Source: a virus
Direction: 5' to 3' (one strand)
UHGV virus genome: UHGV-0197549
Length of the DNA stretch: 64,000 bases
Each line of letters begins with the position of its first letter. The stretch's first letter is position 1. Positions 1-46,120 of this stretch are shown in pieces. The position numbers and the translations under genes are program-made. The notes under the pieces are model-generated. The model was given only the letters and a program-made list of their open reading frames with translations. It did not search any database and was not told where the DNA came from.

Positions 1-591
1 ATGCATATATTTTCCAAACGACACGCTTTCCGCTTTCAGGAAGGCAAGGGCAGGTTTCTCGTTTCCGGGACGCTCTTTTTACTGTTACTTTTATTCAACC
101 CGTATAGTTCGCAGGCGCAACGCGTGGCTGTAAAGACCAACCTTGTGCAATGGGGCGCCGCTTCACCGAACCTCGGGCTGGAGTTTGCACTGGGAGACAG
201 GTTTTCCCTGGAATGTACCAGCGGAGCAAGCCCTATACGTCTTTTCGACACATGGTATTTCAAGCACCTGCATTTGCAGCCCGAACTCAAATACTGGTTC
301 GGAACGCTGATGGCGGGCCATTATGTCGGCGCTACCGCTTTCTTCTCTACTTTCGACCTTGCGATGGGGAAAAGGGCAGCTTTCGGCGATGCATACGCTT
401 TCGGGGCTACCTACGGTTATCAATGGATTCTCTCACGGCGATGGAATGTGGAACTGGCTGCCGGTCTGGGAGCCATCCGACACCGCACGGTACGTTATGT
501 GCCCGGCACCGGACATGGCGAGCCCAATCAGTCGGGCTGGGCCATCGCGCCCGTCAAGCTGGGAATCTCCTTTGTATATATACTCAAATAA
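1..591 (+). CDS. DUF3575-like outer-membrane beta-barrel protein; may extend upstream of the window
   Basis: ORF with N-terminal signal peptide (LFLLLLLFNPYSSQAQ) and alternating aromatic/Gly beta-strand pattern typical of small Bacteroidales OM beta-barrels; family assignment is from memory. Confidence 0.45.
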   Translation: MHIFSKRHAFRFQEGKGRFLVSGTLFLLLLLFNPYSSQAQRVAVKTNLVQWGAASPNLGLEFALGDRFSLECTSGASPIRLFDTWYFKHLHLQPELKYWFGTLMAGHYVGATAFFSTFDLAMGKRAAFGDAYAFGATYGYQWILSRRWNVELAAGLGAIRHRTVRYVPGTGHGEPNQSGWAIAPVKLGISFVYILK

Positions 592-601
592 AACAAACGA
601 T

Positions 602-3310
602 ATGAAACTGATACAAAGAATAGTATTGGCTGTGGTGTGCTTATTTGCCGCACTGCCTTCATTCTGCCAGAATCCGAAAATGGAAATTACAGGTACGGTG
701 ATGGATGACGACGGGCTGCCCGCCATGTCGATTGTCATCCGGGACAAGACGGAGAACGGGGATGTATATGGTATCACGGACTATGACGGTAACTTTAAGA
801 TCATGGCAGACCCTACCACCAGCCTGCACCTCTCGGGATTGACGTATGCGCCGAAGGTGGTGAAGCTGAAAGGAAAGCAGAAAATCAACGTGGTGATGTC
901 CTTTGATACACAACAGTTGGATGAGGTGGTGATTGTGGCCAAACGTATCACCAACAAGCTGGCGCCGGAACCTACCGATATTGAGATTGTAGGCAACCAG
1001 TATATCATCCGTCCGAAGGTGAAGATACCCAAAGAAATGTTCAAGCCCAACAGCCGGGTAATTGTACAGCCGATGCTGGTGAATATCACAAGGAACACAC
1101 AGAAGCTGTTCCGCCCCGCCGTGGTGACGGGCAAGGAATACGCCATCACGCTGGAACGCATGATGGAATTCGACCTCACGCAAGACCCCCTGCATCCCTA
1201 TTATGAGAAAAGCAAGCGGATTGATGGTAACGAGGTCATCGCTTATGTAGACTCACTGTATCTGGACGATCCCGACGACGAGTGCCGCTGTGACATCTTC
1301 ATGTACTTGGTGAATTACCGCAGGACAACCTATCAGGACACGGTGGTGATAGCCAAAGGTACCATCAACCCGATGCGGTTCTTCGACTTCAATATCGGGG
1401 CACAGAAGATTACGGACGAGAAGTACGTGCCACGACCGAAAAAGCAGTTGCGCGGGGACAAGGGACAGGTGAACCTCACCTTCCTTATCAATACGGCCAA
1501 GATAGACTATGACGACCCGAACAACACGGTGGAACTGGAAAAGATGCAGGGAAAGCTCACCCATGTGGATAATGACCCGAATTCGGAGTTCATGGCATTC
1601 AGCGTTACCGCTATATCATCGCCGGAAGGCCCGTACCAGAGTAATCTCAAACTGGCATGGAAGCGTGTGGCTACCGCCAAAGAAACCATTCTGAAATGCC
1701 TCAATCCGGGTACTGTGCTTGCCATGCAGGACAGTATCAGTTTGGATGCGCGGGTGGATACCTGGGAAAGCGTGGCGGCCCTCATGGAGAGGGATTCGGT
1801 GCCTGCCGAAGGGGTAAGGGAAGCCATAGAACGTAATCCGGGAAATATGGAAGCGCAGTACCGGCAGATAGTACGCCTGCCAAATTACCGTAGTGTCATC
1901 TTCAGCGATTACCTGAAACAACTCAGACGGGTGGAATACAGTTTCAGCTATTCGGTGATGAGACTGCTCAATGATGACGAAATCCGCCAGATGTACAAGA
2001 AGAATTACAAGGACCTTGTACAGTATGAGTTCTGGCGCATGTATGTGAACGCCAAGACGGATGCGGAAAGGGAAAAGATATGCTGGCAGGCACTGGAGGT
2101 TTATCCTAAGTTTATGCTGTTTGCCAACGAGCTGGCAGTGATACTGATAGACCGCAAAGAGGCGGATGTTACCTTATTAGAGCCTTTCATCACCGACAAG
2201 GCACCGCAGGAACTGCTTTGCAACCACATTATAGCCTTGTTGGACGATAAAGACTATGTTCGCGCCGACTCCGTAGCCTCGATGCTGATGGACAGTCCGG
2301 TAACGGCCGACGTGAAGGCGCTTGCCGGAGCGTTCAACGGTAACTTCCAGGCGGCTTACGACCGGTTTGCATCCCGTGGGGGAACAAACGAGGTGGTTCT
2401 TCTTCTGGCACTCAAACGCAACGAGGAAGCTTTTGACAAGACGGACGAATTGCCGGATGAAGCGCTTACCTATTATCTGCGTGCCGTAGCTGCCAACAGG
2501 CTGGACAAGATTACGGATGCTTTTGCTAATTTGAAGAAAGCGTTTGCGGCTGATCCCAAGCTGAAGGATGTGGCACGGATAGACGGGGACGTGACGGATT
2601 TGCTGCAACAGTTGGAGGATGAAGAAAAGGAGAAGGCGGAACAAGCGAAGCTGGCGAAGGAGAAAAAGAAGGAGAAGGAAGATGCGGGCGGTGAAGAACC
2701 GGTTGTCCCTGCAACCACGGAAGAATCCGGAGTTTCGCTGAATATTGAAACGACTGTAACCGATATAAAGGGGAAGGTCAAGAAGGCGAAAGCACCCAAG
2801 GAAAAGAAACCCAAGAAGGAGAAGAAGCCTAAAAAGCAAAAGGTGAAAAAGGATGAGAAGGACGGGAAGGCGGAAGAAGCAACAACGACGGACTTAACGC
2901 CGGAAGCTTTGTCTAATGGTACGGACAGCGTACGCATGGAACTCAAAGCGATCACCGACACCATCAGCCCGATCACTCCTATTGTGATAACAGACACGAT
3001 AAGCAACACCGCTCCGGTTATAGAGGAAGCCATCATCGGGGACACCATCGCCGAGCCGGGAGCGGAAGCACCGGCTGAAAAGGTGGAGAAAGCAAAGAAG
3101 GTGAAAAAGGAGAAGAAGGTGAAAGCCAAGAAAGAAAAGGGCAAGAAAGAAAAGAAAGCCAAGGAACCGGCTCAAACGGAAGGTGAAAGCGATGCGGTTG
3201 CCGCCCAAGCACCGGAACCCAGCCGGGCGGAGATGAAACGCAATAAGGGAGGAAACGGAGAAGAAAATAACGATAAAAAGGAAGATGACAATGAAAACGA
3301 AACCAAATAA
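602..3310 (+). CDS. large secreted or lipoprotein-like protein with C-terminal Lys/Glu-rich low-complexity tail
   Basis: In-frame ATG at 602 followed by signal peptide MKLIQRIVLAVVCLFAALPSFC; long ORF; C-terminal ~250 aa dominated by KEKK/KKEK repeats. Confidence 0.55.
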   Translation: MKLIQRIVLAVVCLFAALPSFCQNPKMEITGTVMDDDGLPAMSIVIRDKTENGDVYGITDYDGNFKIMADPTTSLHLSGLTYAPKVVKLKGKQKINVVMSFDTQQLDEVVIVAKRITNKLAPEPTDIEIVGNQYIIRPKVKIPKEMFKPNSRVIVQPMLVNITRNTQKLFRPAVVTGKEYAITLERMMEFDLTQDPLHPYYEKSKRIDGNEVIAYVDSLYLDDPDDECRCDIFMYLVNYRRTTYQDTVVIAKGTINPMRFFDFNIGAQKITDEKYVPRPKKQLRGDKGQVNLTFLINTAKIDYDDPNNTVELEKMQGKLTHVDNDPNSEFMAFSVTAISSPEGPYQSNLKLAWKRVATAKETILKCLNPGTVLAMQDSISLDARVDTWESVAALMERDSVPAEGVREAIERNPGNMEAQYRQIVRLPNYRSVIFSDYLKQLRRVEYSFSYSVMRLLNDDEIRQMYKKNYKDLVQYEFWRMYVNAKTDAEREKICWQALEVYPKFMLFANELAVILIDRKEADVTLLEPFITDKAPQELLCNHIIALLDDKDYVRADSVASMLMDSPVTADVKALAGAFNGNFQAAYDRFASRGGTNEVVLLLALKRNEEAFDKTDELPDEALTYYLRAVAANRLDKITDAFANLKKAFAADPKLKDVARIDGDVTDLLQQLEDEEKEKAEQAKLAKEKKKEKEDAGGEEPVVPATTEESGVSLNIETTVTDIKGKVKKAKAPKEKKPKKEKKPKKQKVKKDEKDGKAEEATTTDLTPEALSNGTDSVRMELKAITDTISPITPIVITDTISNTAPVIEEAIIGDTIAEPGAEAPAEKVEKAKKVKKEKKVKAKKEKGKKEKKAKEPAQTEGESDAVAAQAPEPSRAEMKRNKGGNGEENNDKKEDDNENETK

Positions 3311-4475
3311 GACTGGGTACCTGTTGATAGCCCTACTGTTTTTGATGTGCCTGCCTGCGGGCATGATGGCGCAAAACCGCCAGAAGAAGGACACCGTTCA
3401 ACGGAAAGAGAACATCAAGGCGTCCGAATACATGATACCCAAACGCCGGGGCGCGGACAAGTTCGCCTCAAAGAAGGGAACGGAACATCTGTTCTTCTCA
3501 GCCGGCGCCGGCATGACGCGGTTATTTGATATGGGAAGTAAATTCGCCGCCCACGGTCCGAGGGCTTCGCTGTATGCGGGCAACTGGATAACACCGGTCA
3601 TCGGTATCCGTGGCGGAGTGGATTACAGCATGTGGCGGGGTGACAAGGCTACCAACCTCGTAGGGGTAAGCGCGGATTACCTGATTAACCTCAGCTCTTT
3701 TGCAGCGAGATATAATCCCAAACGCGTGTTTGAAGTGGTGGCTGTTATAGGCATCAGCTACCAGGCAACCATGATGCCCGGAGTGGAAACCATCCATTCA
3801 TACGGGCTGCATGGGGGATTGCAGGGGAAATTCAATATTTCCCCCGCCTTCAACCTGTTCATCGAGCCGCAGTTAGGGCTGTACCCCGACCGCCTGGACA
3901 ATCATTTCTCATGGAGGCGCTATGACCTGGTTGCCTCCGCTATGGTGGGCATCACTTATAAGCCTTCGGGATTCAGCCAGTCATGGTTGTTGCAGAACGG
4001 CTTCGCCTCGGTTTCAGCCGGAACGGGGAACACGGGGAACATGCTGTTCAATACGGAATTTGCACTGGGCAAATGGCTCGGGAAGTCACGTATAAACGGC
4101 ATCCGCATCTCGGCGGGAAGCAGCACGGCATTTCTGGACAGCGATGACAACGGGGCGGACAAGGATTTCAATGTGAACCTTTGCGCCGATTATCTCTGTA
4201 ACCTCACGACTTTGTTTGCCGACCGCAAGAGCCGGGTGTTCGACCTGATCTTCGCCGGAGGTATCGGAAGTTATTTCCCCGGTGCGGAATCCTCCGCCCC
4301 TATCGTTCTGAACGGACGCATCGGGTTACAGGGACAAATGAGGTTGTCGGAGTTTATGGGCGTATGGATTGAGCCCCGAATCAACATATTCAAGGACAAG
4401 AGCTACCGAGCGGACTTGCAGGAACCCATACGGGGGACGGTAGGCGTAATGATAGGAACCAGTTATAAATTTTAA
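3285..4475 (+). CDS. outer-membrane beta-barrel (porin/OmpA-like) protein
   Basis: Signal peptide LLIALLFLMCLPAGMMAQ; Gly/aromatic-rich alternating pattern; C-terminal aromatic residue (KF). Confidence 0.5.
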   Translation: MTMKTKPNKTGYLLIALLFLMCLPAGMMAQNRQKKDTVQRKENIKASEYMIPKRRGADKFASKKGTEHLFFSAGAGMTRLFDMGSKFAAHGPRASLYAGNWITPVIGIRGGVDYSMWRGDKATNLVGVSADYLINLSSFAARYNPKRVFEVVAVIGISYQATMMPGVETIHSYGLHGGLQGKFNISPAFNLFIEPQLGLYPDRLDNHFSWRRYDLVASAMVGITYKPSGFSQSWLLQNGFASVSAGTGNTGNMLFNTEFALGKWLGKSRINGIRISAGSSTAFLDSDDNGADKDFNVNLCADYLCNLTTLFADRKSRVFDLIFAGGIGSYFPGAESSAPIVLNGRIGLQGQMRLSEFMGVWIEPRINIFKDKSYRADLQEPIRGTVGVMIGTSYKF

Positions 4476-4481
4476 GGATAC

Positions 4482-4808
4482 ATGCGGAAAGGAAAGGCGG
4501 GTCTCTTGAAAAGGGAGATTATTACAGAAGTCTGTAAGCGGGTGAAGTGTATGAGAAAGGAAGCTGATGGCATCATAAATGCTTATACGGATGTGATAAT
4601 CGAAGAGTTGAAGGAGGAACGCTCTTTCAGGATAGAGCGGCTGGGAACGCTGCGATATGTGCGCTCGCAGCCACGGAACGGGTTTAACCCGCTCAAACAA
4701 AAGAAGGAAGTTTTCACAGGTAGAAACAAGATAAAGTTCACTCCCTCGAAGGCGGTGGCAAAGTTGCTCAATCCGCCGGAAGATGCCGGGGAGGATAAAG
4801 AAGATTAA
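4482..4808 (+). CDS. HU-family DNA-binding protein
   Basis: C-terminal segment RLGTLRYVRSQPRNGFNPLKQKKEVFTGRNKIKFTPSKAVAKL matches the HU/IHF arm motif (GFGTF..R.ARNP.TGE...I.A...F). Confidence 0.7.
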   Translation: MRKGKAGLLKREIITEVCKRVKCMRKEADGIINAYTDVIIEELKEERSFRIERLGTLRYVRSQPRNGFNPLKQKKEVFTGRNKIKFTPSKAVAKLLNPPEDAGEDKED

Positions 4809-4929
4809 AAAGACACTATATTTCCCACGAAATATAATTGGGGGCTGTAACGAACTGTTGTGAAACATTCTGCCCCGTTTCTCACTAATAAACGTTCATG
4901 CTGTGAAGCATGGCCTTATTTCCCTAAAA

Positions 4930-4982
4930 GGCGCCCTGCCGTGAATTTCCCTAACCCCAGCGGACGGGGCGCCTTATTTTTT
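4930..4982 (+). terminator. rho-independent terminator after the HU gene
   Basis: GC stem GGCGCCC...GGGCGCC followed by TTATTTTTT. Confidence 0.7.
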
Positions 4983-5123
4983 GAGAATAATACATCATTT
5001 CATATATGACCGGCTGCGTCAGGAGTGGCGATAGCCTTATTGTTTGTTTTGTTTTTAGGCACCTAATGTATTGTGAAATACTTGTGGCTAATAAGCCCTT
5101 CGCCGTAAAAGGCAAGGGCTTTC

Positions 5124-5393
5124 TTACTTCCGGACAGGACGGGCGTGAATCTCCACCCGTTTGTCATCAAGGATACGTTTCATGGCTTTCCAGACGGGCA
5201 TCTCTTCGACACCCGCAATCTTCAAAGCTTCTACAATCATGGTGTTCTCCACGAACCGGAGATATTCGTCTTCAGGAACCGGGATACGCCTGTCTTCCTG
5301 TGTTTTAAGTCTTGCCATAGGGAGTTTTGTTTTAGGAGTGGTAAAGGGAGGACTGCCTATTTTCACAAACCGGACGTCCTTTGGATTAAACAA
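5124..5393 (-). CDS. small basic protein at the left edge of the element (possible Xis/DNA-binding protein)
   Basis: ORF only; basic and small (MARLKTQEDRRIPVPEDEYLRF...); function inferred from position and size alone. Confidence 0.3.
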   Translation of the reverse strand: MFNPKDVRFVKIGSPPFTTPKTKLPMARLKTQEDRRIPVPEDEYLRFVENTMIVEALKIAGVEEMPVWKAMKRILDDKRVEIHARPVRK

Positions 5394-5443
5394 ACAAATA
5401 TAAAAATCTTCTAATTTCTTCTGTACTTGCTAATTTCGACAGT

Positions 5444-5860
5444 TCATTTCCGTCCGAAATCGGCGGGAATTTCTCCCCATTCGTCATTTTTCCAGTGAAT
5501 AATTTGAACAGTAGCCACCTGTGCCGACATGACTTTGAGGAAACATTCGGCACGCAGCAGGTCGGTTACGGGCTTTTTGGATGCCGTCTTCTTGTCACGG
5601 AACCAGGCGATAGCCGTCAAGCTATCGGTGTAAACAGTCCGGGGGTGGTAGTCATGCTCCAATATGTATTTCACCGCCGCGATTACGCCCAGGAACTCAC
5701 CGATATTCACGGTCTTGTTGTCAAGGGAACGGTAGAACAGTTCTTCACCTGTTTTCAGGTCTACGGCACGGTATTCGGTCAGGCCGTTCTTGTGGGAATG
5801 CGCGCAGTCGGTGGCGATGCCCTCTGTAGGGCGGCTACCGGACGTCATAGCCGTCTTCAC
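5444..5860 (-). CDS. ribonuclease HI-like protein
   Basis: Motifs align with E. coli RNase HI: TDCAH (DGS-type Asp), IGEFLGV (Glu48 region), VYTDS (Asp70), KTASKKPVTDLL (cf. KTADKKPVKNVDL), C-terminal HWKNDEWGEIPADF. Confidence 0.7.
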   Translation of the reverse strand: MKTAMTSGSRPTEGIATDCAHSHKNGLTEYRAVDLKTGEELFYRSLDNKTVNIGEFLGVIAAVKYILEHDYHPRTVYTDSLTAIAWFRDKKTASKKPVTDLLRAECFLKVMSAQVATVQIIHWKNDEWGEIPADFGRK

Positions 5861-6341
5861 GCATCTGCCGGATTACCTCTTCCGCACGGTCGAGGAAGTC
5901 GGAAATAACGCCGCTCTGGTTGGAAATATCATTCCTTTTGTTCAGTATTGCCAGCACTCCGGCTTTGGTGCGGCTGGAAGAGGTCTTGCCATTTAAGGGG
6001 TCGAAATAAACAGTCTTGCCACCGAAATGCACAGTCACCTGATATGTTTTTCCGGGCACGACGAAAGATTCAACGGTAGCGTTGAAGAGTACCCGGACGG
6101 CGGATGTGACCACGTATCCGTTTTTTCTGTGCATGGGTTTGAGTTCTACATCATACAGGGTATCGGGGAGAACCACCCCTTCCAGTTCTTCGGAAAGGAT
6201 ACAGATCCTCTTCCGGTAAACGGATTCCTCACGGACACCTTTAAGTATGTTGTCTTTGGTTCTGGAAACAAATCCGACGAGCTTGCCCGTTTTGGGGGAT
6301 TTTACGAATTTCAACTGTGTCTTCTCAGTCCTATCAGTCAT
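5835..6341 (-). CDS. hypothetical protein (168 aa) overlapping the RNase H start by ~26 bp
   Basis: ORF with operon-like overlap; no motif recognised. Confidence 0.45.
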   Translation of the reverse strand: MTDRTEKTQLKFVKSPKTGKLVGFVSRTKDNILKGVREESVYRKRICILSEELEGVVLPDTLYDVELKPMHRKNGYVVTSAVRVLFNATVESFVVPGKTYQVTVHFGGKTVYFDPLNGKTSSSRTKAGVLAILNKRNDISNQSGVISDFLDRAEEVIRQMREDGYDVR

Positions 6342-6510
6342 TATGCCTATGTCATAGGTTCAATATCTTATCAGTCAATTAACAATATGGATTCAATCAA
6401 TTAATGCTTTCCAGCGGAACAAAATTAGGGCTTTGAAACCGGATTTCCAAATAATCGGGATGATTATTTTCCGGCTCCAAAGCCCTGTATTGATAGGGAT
6501 TTAACGCTCC

Positions 6511-7161
6511 TTAACGCAGCCTTTGGGCCTTCGAAAAGTGGGCAAAACGCTCGTCCGTACGGGACGTGTTGAACGGAAATTCACACTTCCAGTAACGGTA
6601 GACTCTATCTTCGGGTGAAGTCCTGTAATACACGTCGTTATGGTCTATCCACTGCACCCCCTGTTCGGTGTTCCTGTCTATATATGTGGGACTGTCCGGA
6701 ATCTTGGGGTTGGGACCTGCATAAAGGTTGCACTTGTCACGGCCTTCCACAAATATACAGTGAATTTCTAAGATCGGATCGACATCATATTTGCGGGCGA
6801 ATGCTGCGAACTCGTAAATATCCGTCTCATACAAGCTACCGCCGAAGTGTTCGGGCGCTTCCTTTTGCAGGCGTTCCATGGCTTCCTGAATGGGTTTGCG
6901 GGATTCGATTTCCTTCAGGCGTGCGGGAGTAACCGCTTTACTTGTCACGTAGGCTATCCGGAACCCGTCACCGCCACTGTCGGTGACATGGAGGTTGCAG
7001 AGGTGTTCCACCCTTTTCCAGGCATCGTCTATCGGGTCGGTGGTATCGGCGCAATCCTTGATGCAGATGATAATGACGCCAAATACCACCATGATGGGTA
7101 CAGAGAACCTTGCTATAAGGATAATCCATACCTGCGTGTTGTCGTTATTCTTCGGGCTCAT
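6511..7161 (-). CDS. hypothetical membrane-anchored protein
   Basis: Start chosen at MSPKNNDNTQVWIILIARFSVPIMVVFGVIIICI (N-terminal TM helix); remainder hydrophilic; no family recognised. Confidence 0.45.
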   Translation of the reverse strand: MSPKNNDNTQVWIILIARFSVPIMVVFGVIIICIKDCADTTDPIDDAWKRVEHLCNLHVTDSGGDGFRIAYVTSKAVTPARLKEIESRKPIQEAMERLQKEAPEHFGGSLYETDIYEFAAFARKYDVDPILEIHCIFVEGRDKCNLYAGPNPKIPDSPTYIDRNTEQGVQWIDHNDVYYRTSPEDRVYRYWKCEFPFNTSRTDERFAHFSKAQRLR

Positions 7162-7495
7162 AGATTTTGAGTATGTGGGTTCCGTCTTCGTCGCGTGTCT
7201 CATTGGTACAGGTGGCATATCCCCGGGCGGTCAGCCTTTTGCGGTAGCTCTCCAGTTCTCCTGCCGGGAAGCGGGTCACATGGATGGCCGCACCGTTCTC
7301 TTCAAGGTAAAGCTCCTGCGGGATTTCCAAAGCCTGGGAGACAAGGGCGGAGTCTTCCAGAAAACACTCGTAATTACCGGCTACATGGAAAAGCACTATC
7401 GCGTCTCTCCCGAACCTTTCTTTCATTACGCCGACGATATGCCTGATATAGTCAGCGTTAATCAGTTGATTGTCTTTCATTTCTTCTTTTATCAA
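7145..7495 (-). CDS. stand-alone MutS domain I (mismatch-binding domain)-like protein
   Basis: YIRHIVGVMKERFGRDAIVLFHVAGNYECFLEDSALVSQALEI aligns to MutS domain I [38 protein letters not shown] (GxFYE to GNYE, Glu retained); HVTRFPAGELESYRKRLTARGYATC aligns to [26 protein letters not shown]. Confidence 0.65.
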   Translation of the reverse strand: MIKEEMKDNQLINADYIRHIVGVMKERFGRDAIVLFHVAGNYECFLEDSALVSQALEIPQELYLEENGAAIHVTRFPAGELESYRKRLTARGYATCTNETRDEDGTHILKIYEPEE

Positions 7496-7512
7496 TTGTT
7501 ATCAGTTAAACT

Positions 7513-7878
7513 TTATTCTATTTTTACCTGCCTGACAAGACACGCGTCGCACAACCCGCCGTAACGGGTGAACTTATACTTGCTCACAGGACTGCCGCAG
7601 CAGGTACAGGCGAATTTCTTATTGGCTTCTTTCTTGTAAATAATCAATTCGATGGCGCTCAGGGATAATCCGTAGGCTTCCGCCAAAGCGCGGGCGATGT
7701 GTCCGCCGTGGTGCCTACCCTGATTTTTGATTTCCATGTACTCGCTGCGGATAATGGCAGCACGGCAGGCGGAGGTGTCCAATACGTCGTGTTCGGAGAG
7801 CTTTTCAATCGTCGGACCGTCAATCTCCAGGATGCGGGATAGTTTCTCTTTTTCCCGGTTGGTCAATGTCTTTTTCAT
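7513..7878 (-). CDS. putative transcriptional regulator (HTH plus C-terminal zinc ribbon)
   Basis: Start at MKKTLTNREKEK; HTH-like IARALAEAYGLSLSAIELII; C-terminal CTCCG...CDAC. Confidence 0.5.
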   Translation of the reverse strand: MKKTLTNREKEKLSRILEIDGPTIEKLSEHDVLDTSACRAAIIRSEYMEIKNQGRHHGGHIARALAEAYGLSLSAIELIIYKKEANKKFACTCCGSPVSKYKFTRYGGLCDACLVRQVKIE

Positions 7879-8163
7879 GCAGTAAAGGTGGTTTGGAATA
7901 TATATAGGGAACGTTACGCACCATATATATAGTCGTTTGGTTAATAAATAGCTGTAAATTAGCCCGTTATTACCGTACCACTTTGCTATGTATAATGACA
8001 AGGCAAATATACGGTTTTCCGGGCGATTTATCGGTAAGGAAACAGGGTAAAAGAGAAGAATGCCCGGCCTTCTGTTCCTGTTCCTGCGGAAGATTAGGGA
8101 AAGCCGGGGAAATGAAGTTTGAAATGAAATAGGGAAGACGGCTCAGGTCCTGTGTTACCGCTA

Positions 8164-8514
8164 TTATCCCATAGTTATCAGGTGGTAACCCATCGAATCG
8201 AATTCGGCAGCTTTGATTAGGCCGCCCTCATAGGCTACTTTTATCTCCGGAAGCAACATGTCCTCATCCACACCGTAACGGTTCATGGTGTTAGTGCATA
8301 AATAGAACTGCACATTTTCACCCGCCAGACGGGTTATATTCTCTTTGAGGGTTTTCATATTCGTACGTTTCAGGCAGGATAGCAAAGCGGTGCCTATGGC
8401 AACGACGGCAATATTTTCTACTTTACCGGACTTCAATAAATTGTCGGCATGTGAGAAGGCTTGTTCCCAGTAGCCGTCTTCACGAATAAGGAATACAAAA
8501 CTGAATTTTTCCAT
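8164..8514 (-). CDS. DsrE/DsrF/TusD-like family protein
   Basis: 116 aa; VVAIGTALLSC...FYLCTNTMNRYGV...GYHLITMG matches the DsrE-fold pattern (GdGv...fyvCtns...Gi...gykvit). Confidence 0.55.
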   Translation of the reverse strand: MEKFSFVFLIREDGYWEQAFSHADNLLKSGKVENIAVVAIGTALLSCLKRTNMKTLKENITRLAGENVQFYLCTNTMNRYGVDEDMLLPEIKVAYEGGLIKAAEFDSMGYHLITMG

Positions 8515-8577
8515 GATATGCGGTTTTTCATGGAGAACAAATGGAAAAACATAATGTTCCGGATTTATGTCAGGATT

Positions 8578-8859
8578 TCATGACGACTCATTAATCCGGT
8601 TAATAAAAGTGGTGTCGGGACGCTGGAATTTGCCGTTGGCATAATCATTTGCCACCCTCTTATAGGTCAGGCCGCAAATGATGCCGCCGTCGGAATCTGC
8701 AAGTCCCATAGAATAGGCTTTATACTCGCCCACAGTCCTGAACTCTCTCACATCGACTGCGCCTCCATGGGCGTTGAGCCACTTGGTTGAAGGAATTTTC
8801 CCTGTCTCGTCATATTCCCTGACGGCTGAACCGCCGCAAATTACTGTTGCTTTTATCAT
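8578..8859 (-). CDS. hypothetical protein
   Basis: ORF; start taken at MIKATVICGG to avoid overlap with the next gene. Confidence 0.35.
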   Translation of the reverse strand: MIKATVICGGSAVREYDETGKIPSTKWLNAHGGAVDVREFRTVGEYKAYSMGLADSDGGIICGLTYKRVANDYANGKFQRPDTTFINRINESS

Positions 8860-8872
8860 GCTATATAAGGTT

Positions 8873-9217
8873 TTATTCGTTATTTCCCAGTTCGTCTTCA
8901 AATGTATCAAGCATATTTTCGTATAATCTGCACAGCCAGTCGAGGTTCTGGCAACCTAAGTCATGGCTGTATAAGGTGGCCGCAAAACCTGTATCTTCAT
9001 CCTCGACATCCAGACTGATACCGTCCTTGTCAAGGGAGACTTTCCTGACCGAAGAATCGTATGCGTTCCCATTATTGTCAAACCAAACGACATAACACAA
9101 GTCGTCCAGATCGTCGTCCAGTTCCAGTTCTTCAAGCCCACGCTCCTTCAGTAGATTGATAATGCTGTTCACAATCTCTTTTCGCAGTCCGTTTACCTTT
9201 TGTTGATAATCTTTCAT
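8873..9217 (-). CDS. small strongly acidic protein (DNA-mimic-like composition)
   Basis: ORF; runs of D/E (LEELELDDDLDDL, DVEDEDTGF). Confidence 0.45.
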   Translation of the reverse strand: MKDYQQKVNGLRKEIVNSIINLLKERGLEELELDDDLDDLCYVVWFDNNGNAYDSSVRKVSLDKDGISLDVEDEDTGFAATLYSHDLGCQNLDWLCRLYENMLDTFEDELGNNE

Positions 9218-9233
9218 AATCTAATTTCTTGGT

Positions 9234-9824
9234 TTAAAATTTAATATATTGATAGATACTGTTGATTTCATCTTTATTCAGTCCGATATATCTTTTGGTA
9301 GTCCGTACGCTTTCATGTACCAGAATCTCATTAAGATACAGCAGGGATTCGGCGCTTCTGCCACATTGTTCGTATAAGAACCTGCCGAACGTCTTCCTGA
9401 AAGAGTGCGTGGAGAAATGCTTGATGGATAACCCGTACTCCCGCTTGAAGTCTTTCAGCTTGTCATTGATGTGCTCCAAAGAATAGGTACGTTTGCGGCG
9501 ATAGTTGTAAATGAGGGGCATATTTTTTTCAGGCTGCCCCATGAGTACGTAAAGCTCCTGCAATTTGGTAGTGACCGACGGGTTCAGGGGGATGCTGCGC
9601 GTCTTCTTTGTCTTATGCTCAATCTTCACCAGTTCGTCAGTGTCGAGCACGTCTATCCAGCGAAGAGTCAGAAGGTCGGATATGCGCAGGGCGGTGCAGA
9701 ACGCCACCCGGCAATAGAGTTCCCATGTATATTGCTTATCTTTTCTCAGGCAATCACACAGGCGGTTGAACTCGTCAATCGGCAGGTAATCTGAGGTAGT
9801 GAGTTGTCCTTTGATGCGTGTCAT
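9234..9824 (-). CDS. minimal tyrosine recombinase (catalytic domain only, 196 aa)
   Basis: Catalytic residues in order: ALRISDL (Arg), HSFRKTF (HxxR), RYIGL (Tyr nucleophile context); no N-terminal core- or arm-binding domain. Confidence 0.8.
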   Translation of the reverse strand: MTRIKGQLTTSDYLPIDEFNRLCDCLRKDKQYTWELYCRVAFCTALRISDLLTLRWIDVLDTDELVKIEHKTKKTRSIPLNPSVTTKLQELYVLMGQPEKNMPLIYNYRRKRTYSLEHINDKLKDFKREYGLSIKHFSTHSFRKTFGRFLYEQCGRSAESLLYLNEILVHESVRTTKRYIGLNKDEINSIYQYIKF

Positions 9825-9825
9825 A

Positions 9826-10593
9826 TTATATTGTAATTTTACTTTTATTCAATTGATTGTTTTGCTTCTCCATATCCGGTTTCAATACTTCCCGAATGGC
9901 GGCTTCCTGCTTACGGCGTTGCCAGAAGTTCCAGAGGGCGGATTCTTCTTTGGGTATTTCACGGACTGAAGGCAGACCGCATTTTCCCAGATGTTCGTTC
10001 ACAAGCCAGCCGCCGTAATAGGTGTCGGGGTTAAGGCTGTCATGCCAGATCACTTCGCCATGGCAACCGTGAATGATAAGGTTACACACTGTCATCATGC
10101 AACAAGTACGGTCAATATCTTCCGCCACCAGATAACTCTTGGGGTGTTCGGCATGTGCGGACAACAAAGTGCGCCCACTGCCACAAGTCGGGTCGGAAAT
10201 CATGCCGTTCTCGTTGACAGCCTTGCCCATAACCATCGTCATCAGCTTGCATACATCATCCGGGGTAAAGTTTTGCCCCAGATTTTTCGTGCGGCTGCTA
10301 CCGCCGGTAAGAGACATGTACAGGTCACCAAATACATCATACCAGCCTTGTATGGCTATTTGTCTTTTCATTATCAGTATCCAGTGGCAGAGTATCTTCC
10401 AGAACACAATGTTGTGTTCCTTTTTATAACTCCATGGTTTAAGGGGTTCGGCTTTCCAAGTGAAGTACCCGATTATGTATCTAAGCATGTCATTGAAGAC
10501 TTCCGTCATGTCATAGCCGTTAGTATACATGAATTGTCTCAATAATTTCTCAATCTCCCGCACTTCGGGGGGAGCTTCGCAGTTTGTACTCAT
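9826..10593 (-). CDS. N6-adenine DNA methyltransferase-like protein with atypical or missing motif IV
   Basis: GQNFTP and DPTCGSGRTLL (motif I) plus the LVAED...NLIIHG region match N6_Mtase; the expected NPPF/NPPY is replaced by a compressed HDSLNPDTYYGGW; stop lies 1 nt before the recombinase ATG. Confidence 0.55.
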   Translation of the reverse strand: MSTNCEAPPEVREIEKLLRQFMYTNGYDMTEVFNDMLRYIIGYFTWKAEPLKPWSYKKEHNIVFWKILCHWILIMKRQIAIQGWYDVFGDLYMSLTGGSSRTKNLGQNFTPDDVCKLMTMVMGKAVNENGMISDPTCGSGRTLLSAHAEHPKSYLVAEDIDRTCCMMTVCNLIIHGCHGEVIWHDSLNPDTYYGGWLVNEHLGKCGLPSVREIPKEESALWNFWQRRKQEAAIREVLKPDMEKQNNQLNKSKITI

Positions 10594-10604
10594 TGGTAGT
10601 AGGG

Positions 10605-10646
10605 TATAAAAAAAGCGGTAGAGTTTTTAGTTCCACCGCTTCATCA
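10605..10646 (-). terminator. rho-independent terminator (minus strand) separating upstream genes from the MTase-like/recombinase pair
   Basis: Minus strand reads AAGCGGT-loop-ACCGCTT followed by TTTTTTT. Confidence 0.55.
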
Positions 10647-10664
10647 GGGTTATTTGTTTTCGCT

Positions 10665-11120
10665 TCATTTCTTTTCTTCGTAGCCTTCAACCTGCTTCAT
10701 CACCATGTTGCAGAAGGTCTGTCCGGCATCCGTGTATTGGCTGAAATACCGTATCATCTTGAAGAAGTTGAATTTAAACTCGCCCCACTTTCCGTAATAG
10801 TGGGCGCCCATCACGTTGCCATAGGATTTCCGGAACAGTTCCGGCGTCAGCCCTTCCGTCGCCCGGACACAATTATAGTCCCAGTTTGCGATCCGGAGCA
10901 TAAGCCGGAAATTCAGCGGTTGGATTTTCCAGGTACCTGAACAGTGTTCCCCGGTTTCTTCTTCGGTAAACTCACCGGAATCGGCATCTTCTGCCAAATT
11001 ATTGAAAATAACCTCCTTCACGGAATCCGGAATAAATTCAAGCTCTTCGCCTTCAGGAGTGGTGGTGAAGTCCACCTGGATAGTGTGGCCGTAATATAGT
11101 TCGGTTAATATTTGTCTCAT
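10665..11120 (-). CDS. hypothetical protein (151 aa)
   Basis: ORF in co-directional tight array. Confidence 0.4.
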   Translation of the reverse strand: MRQILTELYYGHTIQVDFTTTPEGEELEFIPDSVKEVIFNNLAEDADSGEFTEEETGEHCSGTWKIQPLNFRLMLRIANWDYNCVRATEGLTPELFRKSYGNVMGAHYYGKWGEFKFNFFKMIRYFSQYTDAGQTFCNMVMKQVEGYEEKK

Positions 11121-18125: not shown

Positions 18126-19442
18126 CTATAATGATGCGACCAAAGTATTGTACACAGCCCGTCTTGTCAATATGGCATTCTGCATACAGCCAAGGGTCAG
18201 ATACCCCGGGATGCCCCCCACGGTCTTGCCCCGGTTGGCTTTAACGTTACGCCCCAGCCCCCGGACTATGCAACCGTCACTCTTTGTTTTGACGTACCCT
18301 AAGCCGCCCACCTTGCGCTTTCCAGTCTGCACCGCTCTCAGGCAGTCCATCACGAACTTGTTTAATTCGTCGAGGTCTTTCCTCACGTTGCATACCGGAA
18401 GTATCTGCGTAGCCCAGCTAAACTCCCCGTTACCTTTGTAGAGGTAGCGGTTTACAGCGTTAATGGCTTTTGTCAGCGTTATTCCCGGCTTGCGGATTGT
18501 GCGTTTCTCTATTTCATGCTGAAACGTTTTGATACGGCTGGAGGATAAGGAGATCATGCTGCCTTTGATACTGAACCCAAGAAACTTGAACCACTTGTCC
18601 ATAGTCAAATATTCAACCTTCTTCGGGTTTAGCTTCATCGTCTTCTCTTCCAACCGGCTCTGGAGCACGCTCATGGCTTTCCCGTATTCTTCCCCGACAA
18701 ACAACATGTCGTCAGAGTATCGTGTGTAGAAACCATCCATTTGAGACAGTTCTTCGTCAAGGTCATACAGCAATACATCGGCAAGCCAGCTTGCCACAGC
18801 GCACCCTTGCTTGAGGGACTGGTATTGACGCAGGAGGTTGTTATCCTCATCGAAGTATAAATCACAGTGGTAGTATTTCCGCAGCACATCAATCAAAGCG
18901 GAATGACCATGCTGCGCTTCCACCTTGTCGAACGCTTCGTCTATGTATTGAACAGGCACACTATCGAAATATTTGCTGAGGTCTGATTTCCAGCCAAAGT
19001 ATCCGTCTTTTTCAGTGGCTACCATTTTATTACTGACTTCGGTCACAACCTTACCACAACCAATCTTTGTTTGGTAGGATTTACACGAGACATGAACCAT
19101 CTCGGGCATCAGATCGAAAAGCAAGTCATTGGCGATGCTTAATATCACCCGGTCAATGGGTTCATTCACGTAAACCGTGCGGAACTCACCGTTTTCTTTT
19201 GGTATCTGGGCGGTGTGGGGAGGTGAAATCTCATACTTACCCTTCCTCATGGCATCAGCAATCGCTATCCGGGTGTTCTCGCCGGTCAGCAATATAAGCT
19301 GGTCCTTCCGAATGTCCTTACCTACACCTTTCTCTATGGCTTTCGTCCACCGGTCAATATCGAAGAACATCTGTAAAATCTTGTCAATCTTATCTATCTT
19401 GTCTGGCATAATCCGTAGTGTTGGTTTCTTTTGTAATATCAC
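18126..19442 (-). CDS. reverse transcriptase (RT domains 0-7 plus thumb; group II/retron-like; family undetermined)
   Basis: IPKENGEFRTV (motif 1), EPIDRVILSIANDLL (2), DLSKYFDSV (3), LKQGCAVASWLADVLLYDLD (4), YTRYSDD (YxDD, motif 5), LNPKKVEY (6), FKFLGF (7); thumb-like AINAVNRYLYKG. Confidence 0.85.
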   Translation of the reverse strand: MILQKKPTLRIMPDKIDKIDKILQMFFDIDRWTKAIEKGVGKDIRKDQLILLTGENTRIAIADAMRKGKYEISPPHTAQIPKENGEFRTVYVNEPIDRVILSIANDLLFDLMPEMVHVSCKSYQTKIGCGKVVTEVSNKMVATEKDGYFGWKSDLSKYFDSVPVQYIDEAFDKVEAQHGHSALIDVLRKYYHCDLYFDEDNNLLRQYQSLKQGCAVASWLADVLLYDLDEELSQMDGFYTRYSDDMLFVGEEYGKAMSVLQSRLEEKTMKLNPKKVEYLTMDKWFKFLGFSIKGSMISLSSSRIKTFQHEIEKRTIRKPGITLTKAINAVNRYLYKGNGEFSWATQILPVCNVRKDLDELNKFVMDCLRAVQTGKRKVGGLGYVKTKSDGCIVRGLGRNVKANRGKTVGGIPGYLTLGCMQNAILTRRAVYNTLVASL

Positions 19443-21161: not shown

Positions 21162-21429
21162 TTGTTTAATTTTTTAAGTTCTGATTTATTCGTTGTCACC
21201 CAGCACTCCTTCGCGGACAGACCCATATTTCATGTCATACTGAGGCAGGCGTAACGCAACCCTGCGAGTGAATAAGGTTTCACCAATCCCGTAACCTCTT
21301 TCAGATTTCCTTTCGGCGGCACATTCTCAAAGGGTTTGCATCGAAAACTAAGCCCTGCGCAATATTATCTTCGTGACTGTTTTCAAGATAGAATTAAATT
21401 TGAAGAACTTCCAAATAACTGTTATTTGG

Positions 21430-22539
21430 TTATTTGTTTGCAGTTTTACGCAAGTTGCCATATAAGGGGTGAGTGCTCCGTTTCTTACGACCGGATGCCA
21501 TCTCCTTCATGACCGCCTTGTATATATTGTCGAAGTCTTCTTTCTTCAAGCGTGGGAAGAAGTCCGCATAGATAACCTCGAATACGCTAAGCCTGCCGTC
21601 CGGATTCAAAGAGAAGAAACTTCTCATTCTATCTTTTGCCTCTGCGAGTTGCCTCCGGGTGCAAGCTTCGGCAGCTTCCTTGATTGCCTTGGAGGGTTTG
21701 TTTTGCTTCCGTGTGTTTGGCTCGGCATACCGCTTTTCCGAACGAGGGAGAAAAGCATCGGAGAAAAAATCGGATCTGTAATCCCGACGCTGGGGACGCA
21801 CTTCCTTATGAGTGTATACTTCACGGCAGTTCTCAACGATATGCTCCACAAGTGTGAGGCATTTCTTCAGATCGGCTATGTTTGTCATTTCGTGGGGAGT
21901 GTGCGGGTAATAATAACCGCATGAGATGTTAGCGCATGATATTTCCAGTCCTCTTTGGCGTAAGGTCTGGACATCGGTTTGCATCCCGCGTTCTTCCTTA
22001 TATCCATGCTCCCCGAGGGAAGCATCTTTTATAAACTGGGATGAGCAAAGAGGATTGCCGTAGATGTTGCTGATAAAGTCACTGTTCCCTTTTCGGTCGC
22101 ATTGGAGTACGAACCGGCAGTCATCGAAGAACTTCATGTCCGCCTGATGACTGCCGATACATCCTTGTTCCTCACCAACAAAGAATACACATTTCAGGTT
22201 ATCGAATTTCTCTAAGCATTTCAGACATACCCAGATGCCGTTCTTGTCATCAGCCCCGATACCGTTGAACTCACGTTTCCCGCTGTTGAAGCCGATAATG
22301 AACTCATCCCTGACAACCAGGACTTCGTAACCTTTTTCCCTCGCCTCATGCACTTCGTCCAGATGGGCGGCAATGCACGGGTAAGTATCAGCGTTGCCTT
22401 TGGTGGCATAGATATTACCAGTTTCGTCTACGGTAAAGGTTACGCCGAGGTCTGATAATCTTTGGGAAACGAACGCGATCATGTCTTTTTCCTGATGCGT
22501 GCGGGCTGAGATGCCATATAGTTCTTTCAATAATTCCAT
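21430..22539 (-). CDS. M20/M28/M42-type metallopeptidase-like protein with C-terminal basic extension
   Basis: Metal-ligand pattern AAHLDEV (HxD) ... GADDKNG ... GEEQG. Confidence 0.5.
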   Translation of the reverse strand: MELLKELYGISARTHQEKDMIAFVSQRLSDLGVTFTVDETGNIYATKGNADTYPCIAAHLDEVHEAREKGYEVLVVRDEFIIGFNSGKREFNGIGADDKNGIWVCLKCLEKFDNLKCVFFVGEEQGCIGSHQADMKFFDDCRFVLQCDRKGNSDFISNIYGNPLCSSQFIKDASLGEHGYKEERGMQTDVQTLRQRGLEISCANISCGYYYPHTPHEMTNIADLKKCLTLVEHIVENCREVYTHKEVRPQRRDYRSDFFSDAFLPRSEKRYAEPNTRKQNKPSKAIKEAAEACTRRQLAEAKDRMRSFFSLNPDGRLSVFEVIYADFFPRLKKEDFDNIYKAVMKEMASGRKKRSTHPLYGNLRKTANK

Positions 22540-28140: not shown

Positions 28141-28167
28141 AAACTTCCAAATAGCACCTATATAGTT
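28141..28167. promoter_or_regulatory. copy 1 of the recurrent palindromic motif AAACTTCCAAATAGCACCTATAT
   Basis: Sequence match to the copies at 29715, 32469 and 59812. Confidence 0.5.
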
Positions 28168-46117: not shown

Positions 46118-46120
46118 ATT

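What the first reader, a model, noticed from the sequence alone, without database searches (positions are those of the whole stretch)
7145..7495. Stand-alone MutS mismatch-binding domain (domain I) gene in the mobile-element early region
A 116-aa protein aligns residue-for-residue with MutS domain I but lacks connector, clamp and ATPase domains. The mismatch-intercalating Phe of GxFYE is replaced by Tyr while the Glu is kept. An isolated mismatch-binding module could act as a competitive inhibitor of host mismatch repair. That would favour homeologous recombination or escape of the element's DNA from MMR, in the manner of anti-repair or anti-defence proteins.
Basis: partly seen in the sequence, partly recalled or inferred. 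Interest (0 to 1): 0.6.

Follow-up and report, generated by a model that had tools for sequence, protein, structure and literature searches.

The report
Stand-alone MutS domain I phage protein
A gut Bacteroides prophage encodes a 111-residue protein with the fold of the mismatch-binding domain of the repair protein MutS, but it lacks the phenylalanine that MutS uses to recognise mismatches, so it is probably a nucleic-acid-binding accessory protein and not a proven blocker of host mismatch repair.

Summary
Window 7145-7495 (-) is a real gene under purifying selection; its likely start is the ATG at 7480, giving 111 aa. It matches Pfam MutS_I above the curated cut-off. Its AlphaFold model matches only MutS/MSH domain I among solved structures.

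One detail is wrong. The alignment is ungapped: MutS G-D-F36-Y37-E38 corresponds to A-G-N-Y-E here. The intercalating Phe is therefore replaced by Asn, not Tyr. That position varies across 135 family clusters, while Glu is kept in 130 of them.

The element is a ~95-110 kb Bacteroides prophage related to phage BS-TP1, not a conjugative element.

The gene belongs to a family of ~130 small proteins found only in Bacteroidales prophages. They always sit in one syntenic cassette at the prophage end: HTH/zinc-ribbon protein, MutS-I, membrane protein, 168-aa protein, RNase H1, small protein.

MutS-I domains outside MutS were already described in mobile-element polyvalent proteins (Iyer et al. 2017) and predicted to bind DNA.

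My best reading is a solo, Phe-less, structure-specific nucleic-acid binder serving the phage. The mismatch-repair decoy idea is not excluded but has no positive support. I rate it a new variant of a known kind, of moderate interest.

The parts
7145..7480 (-). Stand-alone MutS domain I-like protein. It is 111 aa from the ATG at 7480; the mechanical ORF extends to a TTG at 7495 (116 aa).
   Evidence: ORF. Pfam MutS_I above the cut-off. Fold match to MutS/MSH domain I. Homologues are 111-112 aa and start MK[DE]. dN/dS 0.06-0.27.
7367..7381 (-). Codons for A-G-N-Y-E, the equivalent of MutS G-D-F36-Y37-E38. The Asn codon at 7373-7375 replaces the intercalating Phe; Tyr and Glu are retained.
   Evidence: Sequence read directly. 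Ungapped alignments to MutS. Family-wide counts at the three positions.
7513..7881 (-). Upstream cassette gene of 122 aa with a probable helix-turn-helix and a C-terminal CxxC...CxxC zinc ribbon. It ends 32 nt before the MutS-I ATG.
   Evidence: ORF and sequence. Syntenic in all related loci at 37-98% identity. No Pfam, NCBIfam or PADLOC hit. The HTH and zinc-ribbon reading comes from inspecting the sequence only.
6511..7161 (-). 216-aa protein with one N-terminal transmembrane helix and a globular domain of unknown fold. Its ATG overlaps the MutS-I stop by 17 nt, which suggests translational coupling.
   Evidence: Sequence. 45 homologue clusters of ~216-220 aa. AF2 model with pLDDT 85 and a long helix at residues 7-37. 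No significant PDB fold match, best E=0.4. Syntenic everywhere except in BS-TP1.
5835..6341 (-). 168-aa protein of unknown function. It overlaps the start of the RNase H ORF by 26 nt.
   Evidence: 52-98% identity in related loci. Homologue in BS-TP1 is gp108. No family or PDB match.
5444..5860 (-). RNase H1 catalytic domain without a hybrid-binding domain; the D-E-D-D catalytic residues are present.
   Evidence: PDB Bacillus halodurans RNase H (1ZBF and others) at E=6e-20. NCBIfam RNase H at 2.3e-24 over model positions 79-211 only. PHROG 'Rnase H'. Catalytic residues read from the translation.
5124..5393 (-). Last small cassette gene (89-aa ORF; called as 64-68 aa in relatives). Homology to related prophages stops at about 5104-5134, which marks the prophage end.
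   Evidence: Boundary mapped by blastn.

Best explanation
The gene encodes a solo, highly diverged MutS domain I module. It belongs to a family of about 130 small proteins (87-157 aa) found only in large temperate phages of Bacteroidales.

Shown:
- It has the MutS-I fold.
- It has lost the Phe wedge but keeps the adjacent aromatic residue and the Glu on the same beta-hairpin.
- It is under purifying selection.
- It is always the second gene of a fixed cassette at the prophage end: HTH/zinc-ribbon protein, MutS-I, membrane protein, 168-aa protein, RNase H1, small protein. In distant relatives an HU-like protein follows.

Inferred: it works as a non-catalytic, structure-specific nucleic-acid binder, as proposed for the MutS-I domains of mobile-element polyvalent proteins. 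The conserved Tyr/Phe-Glu hairpin would recognise an irregular feature of the phage's own DNA, such as an unpaired or extrahelical base, a single-strand/duplex junction, a loop or an RNA:DNA hybrid end. It would do this without the Phe stacking that defines base-mismatch recognition. It would serve replication, processing or protection of phage DNA together with the neighbouring RNase H1. It may be held at the membrane through the translationally coupled 216-aa membrane protein.

The confidence given (0.45) is for the inferred mechanism. The identity of the protein as a solo MutS-I-fold family member is close to certain.
For: - Fold and homology.
- Distinct family signature: LFH[VN]Gxx[YF]E[AC][YF] against the canonical LFR[VM]GDFYE[TF].
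- Motif conservation: Glu in 130 of 135 clusters and Tyr/Phe in 128 of 135, while the Phe position varies. The hairpin is therefore still under selection as a site.
- Family size: an exhaustive profile search of 1.84 billion representatives found only 70 proteins, mostly 80-136 aa. Full-length MutS appears only at E around 3e-4.
- Synteny: the cassette order is kept at 25-37% MutS-I identity on ~70-140 kb viral contigs, 2-6 kb from the contig end, and in prophages directly next to host genes.
- RNase H1 identity.
- HU gene at the cassette end in relatives.
- Precedent: MutS-I domains occur in mobile-element polyvalent proteins of Bacteroidetes and Firmicutes, about 80% with ArdC-N, and were predicted to bind DNA (PMC5512222). 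I re-found such architectures: P0079 is DUF285 + 4 x MutS_I + ArdC-N, and P0116 is RadC-JAB + 2 x MutS_I. A stand-alone LPD28, another polyvalent-protein domain, lies four genes upstream in distant relatives.
- Purifying selection.
Against: - No binding data exist, and the ligand is pure inference.
- The window clade is acidic (net charge -8, pI about 5), and family pI ranges from 4.5 to 9.6. There is no consistently basic surface.
- The stretch that aligns with MutS 'LTKRGASAG' is 'PQELYLEENG' here, which does not look like a DNA-backbone contact.
- RNase H is truncated in two relatives that keep MutS-I (L010 and L011). The membrane protein is missing in BS-TP1. The partners are therefore not obligatory.
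- MutS-I is the fastest-diverging cassette member together with the HTH protein. That pattern also fits a host-protein binder.
Confidence: 0.45

Rival explanations
1. Mismatch-repair decoy or inhibitor. The isolated domain occupies mismatches or loops, or binds host MutS or MutL, and so lowers host mismatch repair. That would favour homeologous recombination or fix errors made on phage DNA.
For: - True MutS-I fold.
- Glu38 equivalent almost invariant.
- 19 of 135 clusters keep Phe or Tyr at the wedge position.
- MSH3 lacks the Phe-X-Glu motif and is known from the literature to recognise loops (recalled, not checked here).
- Somewhat faster evolution than its neighbours.
- The same phage carries a UmuD/UmuC-like error-prone polymerase pair and a reverse transcriptase. 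Both could generate mispairs.
Against: - The Phe wedge is Asn here and is variable in the family. F36A abolishes specific binding in MutS.
- A lone domain lacks the clamp domains and the second subunit that supply most of the DNA interface.
- Identity to MutS is only 17-24%, so mimicry of host MutS surfaces is unlikely.
- The UmuDC pair and the reverse transcriptase lie 11-38 kb away. The distance from the reverse transcriptase to MutS-I is 12-28 kb in relatives.
- No phage protein family that inhibits MutS turned up in the literature searches.
Confidence: 0.12
2. Protein-binding adaptor with no nucleic-acid role. The MutS-I fold has been reused as a scaffold that binds the co-translated membrane protein or a host protein.
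For: - Acidic protein with an acidic loop where MutS is basic.
- 17-nt overlap with the membrane-protein gene.
- Fastest-evolving cassette member.
- Family-specific invariant residues (the His of LFH and the C-terminal GxHILKIYE) have no counterpart in MutS.
Against: - The Tyr/Phe-Glu hairpin, the nucleic-acid contact site in MutS, is the most conserved element of the family.
- Family members range up to pI 9.6.
- The membrane protein is absent in BS-TP1, where a MutS-I-like gene may persist.
Confidence: 0.2
3. Prophage-encoded defence or superinfection-exclusion cassette. MutS-I would sense incoming foreign DNA and the membrane protein would act as the effector.
For: - The cassette lies at the very end of the prophage, a common place for defence genes.
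- It contains a membrane protein and nucleic-acid-binding proteins.
Against: - No PADLOC match for any cassette protein.
- The cassette is strictly syntenic and vertically conserved down to 25% identity, in the same orientation as the long operon. That is unlike swappable defence islands.
- An active RNase H1 and an HU protein are not typical defence effectors.
Confidence: 0.1
4. Decaying fragment of a captured mutS gene with no function.
For: Only the first domain of MutS is present.
Against: - dN/dS is 0.06-0.27.
- About 130 clusters have a conserved length and their own invariant motifs.
- Synteny is fixed.
- The AF2 fold is confident.
Confidence: 0.01

Closest known systems
MutS-I domains of mobile-element polyvalent proteins (Iyer, Burroughs, Anand, de Souza, Aravind 2017, J Bacteriol; PMC5512222)
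   Same: Both are MutS domain I used outside MutS by a mobile element of Bacteroidetes, with no ATPase attached. The polyvalent-protein domains were predicted to be non-catalytic DNA binders acting on the element's own DNA. I found examples in the profile search: P0079 and P0116.
   Different: This is a single-domain protein, not part of a polypeptide of 2-15 domains. No ArdC-N is fused or found among the roughly 50 window ORFs I scanned. It sits in a phage, not a conjugative element. It forms a separate sequence family with the signature LFH[VN]G..[YF]E and has lost the Phe. The 2017 paper stated that polyvalent proteins were the only occurrence of the domain outside MutS, so the solo family is not covered there.
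Bacterial MutS (MutS1) mismatch-binding domain, e.g. E. coli MutS residues 2-115 (PDB 1E3M)
   Same: Same fold (TM about 0.67). Same beta-hairpin carrying Tyr37 and Glu38. Same core positions: the Lys of helix 1, the LF of strand 1, the D[AS] that starts helix 2, and the Gly before strand 4.
   Different: Identity is 17-24%. Phe36 is replaced by Asn. There are no connector, core, clamp or ATPase domains and no dimer. The loop aligning with MutS 'TKRG' is acidic. The C-terminal motif GxHILKIYE is specific to this family.
MSH2 and MSH3 domain I (eukaryotic MutS homologues lacking Phe-X-Glu)
   Same: These are MutS-I folds without the Phe wedge. MSH3 chains are among the best structural matches, at 22-24% identity. 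Some relatives carry Lys at the Phe position (motif ADKYECF); from memory MSH3 has Lys at the same place (G-Y-K-Y-R).
   Different: MSH3 also lacks the Glu, whereas this family keeps it. MSH2 and MSH3 act only within full-length heterodimers. The residue comparison with MSH3 rests on recalled sequence, not on a test done here.
Other automatically annotated solo viral MutS-I proteins (UniProt A0A8S5PPT8, 153 aa, Siphoviridae sp.; A0A8S5PL02, 74 aa, Myoviridae sp.; Klosneuvirus A0A1V0SJ64, 135 aa). NCBI names a Bacteroides ovatus homologue, WP_211480569.1, 'MutS N-terminal domain-containing protein'.
   Same: They are short stand-alone proteins with the MutS-I fold encoded by viruses. The B. ovatus entry belongs to this very family.
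   Different: None has been studied; the names are automatic. I did not examine whether the other viral proteins share the Phe loss or the cassette.

Membership tests
MutS domain I superfamily (Pfam PF01624) | Profile match above the curated gathering score | tested here: met
   30.8 bits against a cut-off of 20.6, E=3.8e-7. A MutS-only profile built here gives 42 bits.
MutS domain I superfamily (Pfam PF01624) | Three-dimensional fold of MutS domain I | tested here: met
   AF2 model with pLDDT 81. Its top 50 PDB hits are all MutS/MSH domain I, with E down to 6e-7.
Mismatch-recognising MutS-I (MutS1 / MSH6 type) | Phe of the Phe-X-Glu motif, which stacks on the mismatched base | tested here: not met
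   Asn at this position. Across the family it is N 62, S 25, Y 11, K 10, F 8 and others, of 135 clusters.
Mismatch-recognising MutS-I (MutS1 / MSH6 type) | Glu of the Phe-X-Glu motif | tested here: met
   Glu is retained (E43 in 116-aa numbering, E38 in 111-aa numbering). It is Glu in 130 of 135 clusters.
MutS mismatch-repair protein | Connector, core/lever, clamp and ABC ATPase domains (MutS_II to MutS_V) in the same polypeptide | tested here: not met
   The protein is 111 aa and only MutS_I matches. The neighbouring genes have no MutS_II-V matches.
Polyvalent-protein MutS-I (Iyer et al. 2017) | MutS-I domain encoded by a phage or conjugative element of Bacteroidetes or Firmicutes | tested here: met
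   The surroundings are a phage: portal, protease/scaffold, tape measure, KilA-N/ANT. Hosts are Bacteroides, Parabacteroides and Tannerellaceae.
Polyvalent-protein MutS-I (Iyer et al. 2017) | Embedded in a multidomain polypeptide of 2-15 domains | tested here: not met
   Single-domain protein of 111 aa. All ~130 family clusters are 87-157 aa.
Polyvalent-protein MutS-I (Iyer et al. 2017) | Co-occurrence with an ArdC-N domain (about 80% of cases) | tested here: not met
   No ArdC-N hit in any of the roughly 50 window ORFs scanned against Pfam. Not every small ORF was scanned.
Structure-specific nucleic-acid-binding protein (functional class) | Direct binding to DNA or RNA:DNA substrates | not testable with these tools
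   Needs purified protein and gel-shift or anisotropy assays.
Inhibitor of host mismatch repair (functional class; no defined family) | Raises host mutation or homeologous recombination rate, or binds MutS or MutL | not testable with these tools
   Needs expression in a host and a fluctuation assay. The literature searches found no such phage protein family.

The most novel reading that the evidence does not exclude
The family is a minimal MutS-I module that gut Bacteroides phages use on mispaired or hybrid intermediates. It would either hide them from host MutS (a first viral anti-mismatch-repair protein) or hand them to the adjacent RNase H1. It could also mark products of the phage's own error-prone enzymes, the UG27 reverse transcriptase and the UmuDC-like polymerase. 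In any of these cases, Glu without Phe would define a recognition mode not seen in cellular MutS proteins.
Probability: 0.1. Interest if true: 0.8.

Novelty: new variant of a known kind. Interest (0 to 1): 0.42.

Why it matters
MutS domain I is the textbook mismatch sensor. This is a compact, naturally isolated version that has discarded the Phe wedge yet keeps the Glu under strong selection. It could show what the domain can recognise on its own.

The family and its six-gene terminal cassette are conserved across a large, abundant and almost uncharacterised lineage of ~100 kb temperate Bacteroides phages of the human gut. Knowing its role would annotate part of that dark matter.

If the decoy reading were true, it would be the first phage protein known to tamper with mismatch repair. 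That would matter for mutation and recombination rates of gut commensals and for recombineering tools in Bacteroides.

A cultured relative, phage BS-TP1 on B. salyersiae, has the syntenic region, so the question can be tested experimentally.

Tried and rejected
- **Conjugative-transposon context.** Rejected. The window encodes a Mu-type portal, a ClpP-like protease/scaffold, a tape measure and KilA-N/ANT proteins. Relatives are ~70-140 kb IMG/VR viral contigs.
- **Link to a diversity-generating retroelement.** The idea was that MutS-I might protect mutagenised cDNA heteroduplexes. Rejected. The reverse transcriptase at 18126-19442 has a group-II-like QG...S motif and is UG27 class (E=7e-234). 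An exhaustive search for adenine-specific TR/VR repeats in the window found none. The distance from the reverse transcriptase to MutS-I varies from 12 to 28 kb among phages.
- **Second MutS-I paralogue in the window.** None was found with a family profile over all six frames. One does exist in locus L007.
- **Function of the coupled membrane protein.** The AF2 model is confident (pLDDT 85), but no PDB fold match is significant; the best is E=0.4, stomatin-like. Sequence searches were empty.
- **The 168-aa protein.** No family or PDB hit.
- **Near-identical DNA in reference phages or plasmids.** None.
- **Promoter and terminator scan of 4000-11000.** Counts were about two standard deviations or less above the shuffled mean, and the sigma-70 consensus does not apply to Bacteroides.
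- **Pairwise BLASTP against E. coli MutS domain I.** Uninformative. phmmer against PDB sequences gave only E around 0.7. Homology is visible only to profiles and structure.
- **Viral-contig searches with three other distant members (P0055, P0059, P0060).** Nothing found.
- **Net charge as a proxy for DNA binding.** Inconsistent across the family.
Full report
**1. The observation**

Window 7145-7495 on the minus strand is an ORF of 116 codons starting at a TTG. All 51 close homologue clusters are 111-112 aa and begin MK[DE]. The real start is therefore most likely the ATG at 7480, giving 111 aa.

The evidence for a MutS domain I homologue is as follows.
- The protein matches Pfam MutS_I (PF01624) at E=3.8e-7 and 30.8 bits, above the curated cut-off of 20.6.
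- It matches the first ~80 positions of NCBI's full-length MutS models and nothing further along them.
- Single-sequence searches fail: phmmer against PDB gives E around 0.7 and BLASTP against E. coli MutS finds nothing useful.
- An AlphaFold2 model built on 23 family sequences is confident, with mean pLDDT 81 and the core at 84-97.
- The model's 50 best Foldseek matches among solved structures are all domain I of MutS, MSH2 or MSH3 (E down to 6e-7, TM about 0.67).
- Against relatives, dN/dS is 0.06-0.27.

So a real, selected, stand-alone MutS domain I homologue lies at the stated coordinates.

**2. The motif**

Three independent alignments are ungapped through this region: MAFFT with genuine MutS sequences, a family profile and a profile built only from canonical MutS domain I (high posterior probability). 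All place MutS [15 protein letters not shown] against LFHVAGNYECFLEDS.

With the ATG start the residues are N36-Y37-E38, the same numbers as E. coli F36-Y37-E38. The Tyr is the ordinary Tyr of the motif. The intercalating Phe is replaced by Asn (codon 7373-7375, read). The Glu is kept.

Across 135 family clusters:

| MutS position | Residues found |
|---|---|
| Phe36 | N 62, S 25, Y 11, K 10, F 8, H 6, others 13 |
| Tyr37 | Y or F in 128 |
| Glu38 | E in 130 |

A review of the mismatch-repair field states that F36A abolishes specific DNA binding by MutS. It also states that MSH2 and MSH3 lack the motif (PMC3848065).

**3. What the element is**

It is a prophage, not a conjugative element.
- The plus strand from about 35.9 kb encodes a Mu-type portal, a MuF-like protein, a ClpP-like protease/scaffold and a tape-measure protein. 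KilA-N/ANT antirepressor-like genes lie nearby on the minus strand (28-35 kb).
- The minus strand from about 35.6 kb down to 5.1 kb is a long run of small genes. It includes a primase-like protein, an orphan N6-methylase, a catalytic-domain-only tyrosine recombinase and a reverse transcriptase.
- The portal is 61% identical to that of the cultured temperate Bacteroides phage BS-TP1 (111.7 kb) and 77% identical to a 99.8 kb faecal phage contig (PMC12694917).
- Family members occur on ~70-140 kb IMG/VR contigs. They also occur in a Bacteroides MAG, in B. ovatus, where NCBI names the protein 'MutS N-terminal domain-containing protein', and in Parabacteroides and Tannerellaceae.
- Homology to related prophages stops at window 5104-5134. 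The gene is therefore about 2 kb from the prophage end.

**4. The family and its cassette**

An exhaustive profile search of 1.84 billion representative proteins found only 70 hits. Most are 80-136 aa, and full-length MutS appears only near E=3e-4. The hits fall into two classes:
- canonical LFR[VM]GDFYE[TF], from MutS, its fragments and mobile-element fusions;
- a small-protein class, LFH[VN]Gxx[YF]E[AC][YF].

A second search with an alignment of the small class returned 128 clusters, all 87-157 aa.

In every locus examined the gene order is the same, including members only 25-37% identical. The order is a 122-149 aa protein (probable HTH plus zinc ribbon), MutS-I, a ~216-233 aa protein with one transmembrane helix, a ~168-184 aa protein, an RNase H1 catalytic domain and a ~64-89 aa protein. 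In the most distant relatives an HU-like protein follows, and then host genes.

Details of the cassette in this window:
- The start of the membrane-protein gene overlaps the MutS-I stop by 17 nt.
- The 168-aa gene overlaps the RNase H ORF.
- The RNase H is a true one: E=6e-20 to Bacillus halodurans RNase H structures, with the D-E-D-D residues present.

MutS-I and the HTH protein are the fastest-diverging members. They are 29-41% identical in loci where the 168-aa protein and RNase H are 52-61% identical, and MutS-I dN/dS reaches higher values than its neighbours'.

The partners are not obligatory. RNase H is truncated in L010 and L011, where MutS-I is intact.

In cultured phage BS-TP1 the syntenic region is gp106 (HTH/zinc ribbon), gp107, gp108 (168-aa homologue) and gp109 (RNase H). 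It has no membrane protein. Its gp107 is only marginally MutS-I-like (E around 3e-5 in a ten-sequence search, motif P-G-R-Y-I).

**5. Comparison with what is known**

Iyer et al. [quoted passage not shown] About 80% occur together with the ssDNA-binding ArdC-N domain. The authors predicted that these domains bind features of the element's DNA soon after entry. They called this the only occurrence of the domain outside MutS (PMC5512222).

My profile search recovered such proteins: P0079 is DUF285 + 4 x MutS_I + ArdC-N, and P0116 is RadC-JAB + 2 x MutS_I. Another polyvalent-protein domain, LPD28, occurs as a stand-alone gene four genes upstream of MutS-I in distant relatives.

Solo viral MutS-I proteins also exist in UniProt with automatic names. 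Literature searches found no study of a solo MutS-I protein and no phage inhibitor of MutS.

The present gene is thus a solo, Phe-less subfamily of an already noted mobile-element use of the domain. It fails the membership tests for a mismatch-recognising MutS-I (no Phe), for MutS proper (no other domains) and for polyvalent proteins (single domain, no ArdC-N).

**6. Mechanism**

Shown: the fold, loss of the wedge, strong retention of the Tyr/Phe-Glu hairpin, purifying selection, and fixed neighbourhood with RNase H1 (and HU in relatives) at the prophage end.

Inferred: the protein is a non-catalytic binder of an irregular nucleic-acid structure on phage DNA and uses the conserved hairpin without base stacking. 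It probably acts with the cassette's other nucleic-acid proteins. It may be tethered by the co-translated membrane protein. I give this about 0.45.

Three observations count against it. The window clade is acidic (net -8). The loop aligned with the basic TKRG of MutS is acidic. No binding data exist.

Rival explanations:

| Rival | Confidence | Main point |
|---|---|---|
| Pure protein-binding adaptor | 0.2 | Fits the acidity, the gene overlap and the fast divergence |
| Prophage defence cassette | 0.1 | No PADLOC hit; vertical conservation argues against it |
| Dead gene fragment | 0.01 | Refuted by selection and conservation |

**7. Dead ends**

- The reverse transcriptase is UG27 class, not DGR type. 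No TR/VR pair exists in the window, and the gene is not linked in distance to MutS-I.
- The membrane protein folds confidently but matches no solved fold.
- The window has no second MutS-I paralogue.

**8. Verdict**

Novelty is a new variant of a known kind. Interest is moderate (0.42). The family is conserved, uncharacterised, testable in a cultured relative, and asks what MutS domain I can do alone. Nothing here shows an anti-repair activity.

Noticed in passing
window 18126-19442 (-): A reverse transcriptase of the 'unknown group' UG27 class (PADLOC RT_UG27, E=7e-234, full-length match). It is not DGR type. Homologues at 77-97% identity occur on 165 IMG/VR viral contigs. It is far more conserved than the surrounding phage genes, for example 85% identity where MutS-I is 29%. 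This suggests strong constraint or recent horizontal spread among Bacteroides phages.
   Followed up: partly
window 43964-46573 (-): A UmuD-like (Peptidase_S24, 46121-46573) plus UmuC-like (IMS Y-family polymerase, 44858-46117) pair, with an 8xMP membrane protein (43964-44800). They lie in a low-GC island (GC 0.37 against about 0.52 on either side) inserted on the opposite strand within the late structural genes. This is a phage-borne error-prone polymerase module.
   Followed up: partly
window 21393-21433, 28111-28169, 29685-29739, 32439-32497: A repeated motif of ~20 nt, AACTTCCAAATAGCAnCTAT(a/t)T(a/g)G, with partial dyad symmetry, at four intergenic places in the leftward region near the KilA-N/ANT genes. 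These are candidate operator or regulatory sites (repeat families D5 and D6).
   Followed up: no
L007 (MT836406.1) 3884-4360 (+): A related faecal phage contig carries a second, different MutS-I-like gene of 158 aa (motif YIFRNGESCELYEDDA, with both Phe and Tyr replaced and Glu kept). It lies 3.5 kb upstream of its cassette copy. The family profile scores it at 53 bits. No such second copy exists in the window.
   Followed up: partly
window 9234-9824 (-) and 9826-10593 (-): A 196-aa tyrosine recombinase consisting only of the catalytic domain (Phage_integrase, E=2.5e-20) lies directly downstream of an orphan N6-adenine methylase fragment-like gene. The recombinase is 82-99% identical across related prophages, much more conserved than its neighbours.
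   Followed up: no
window 8164-8514 (-): A DsrE/DsrF-like protein (sulfur-relay fold, E=3e-8) is encoded among the small phage genes just upstream of the cassette. In relatives a GP88-family protein occupies this position instead.
   Followed up: no
L019-L024 (distant relatives), about 2.3 kb downstream of MutS-I: In the most distant prophages the cassette ends with an HU-like gene (Bac_DNA_binding, 97-106 aa) directly next to host genes (IF2/NusA, a GH65 glycosidase, a TraQ-family (PF12988) gene). The flanking host genes differ between prophages, so integration is not at one fixed site. A stand-alone LPD28 domain gene lies four genes upstream of MutS-I in L019 and L020, and a PAPS-reductase-like gene lies upstream in L021 and L023-L024.
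   Followed up: partly
window 60858-63224 (+): Diverged direct repeats of 159-231 nt (72-81% identity, spacing about 1 kb; families D1, D2 and D4) lie in the distal late region. They look like duplicated tail-fibre or receptor-binding modules. Mismatches are not adenine-specific, so this is not a DGR target pair.
   Followed up: partly
window 323-3310 (+), repeats at 2768-3178: A 995-aa ORF outside the conserved prophage end has a CarboxypepD_reg-like domain and a lysine-rich, low-complexity KEKK-type repeat region. It was not established whether it belongs to the host or to a variable phage arm. Window 3291-5503 is shared with two IMG/VR contigs (L010 and L011) but not with the others.
   Followed up: no
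L105 (Bacteroides phage BS-TP1, PQ571274.1) 95153-97073: The cultured phage BS-TP1 has the syntenic block gp106 (HTH/zinc ribbon), gp107 (101 aa, annotated hypothetical, marginally MutS-I-like), gp108 and gp109 (RNase H). It lacks the membrane protein. This gives an experimental handle on the cassette.
   Followed up: partly
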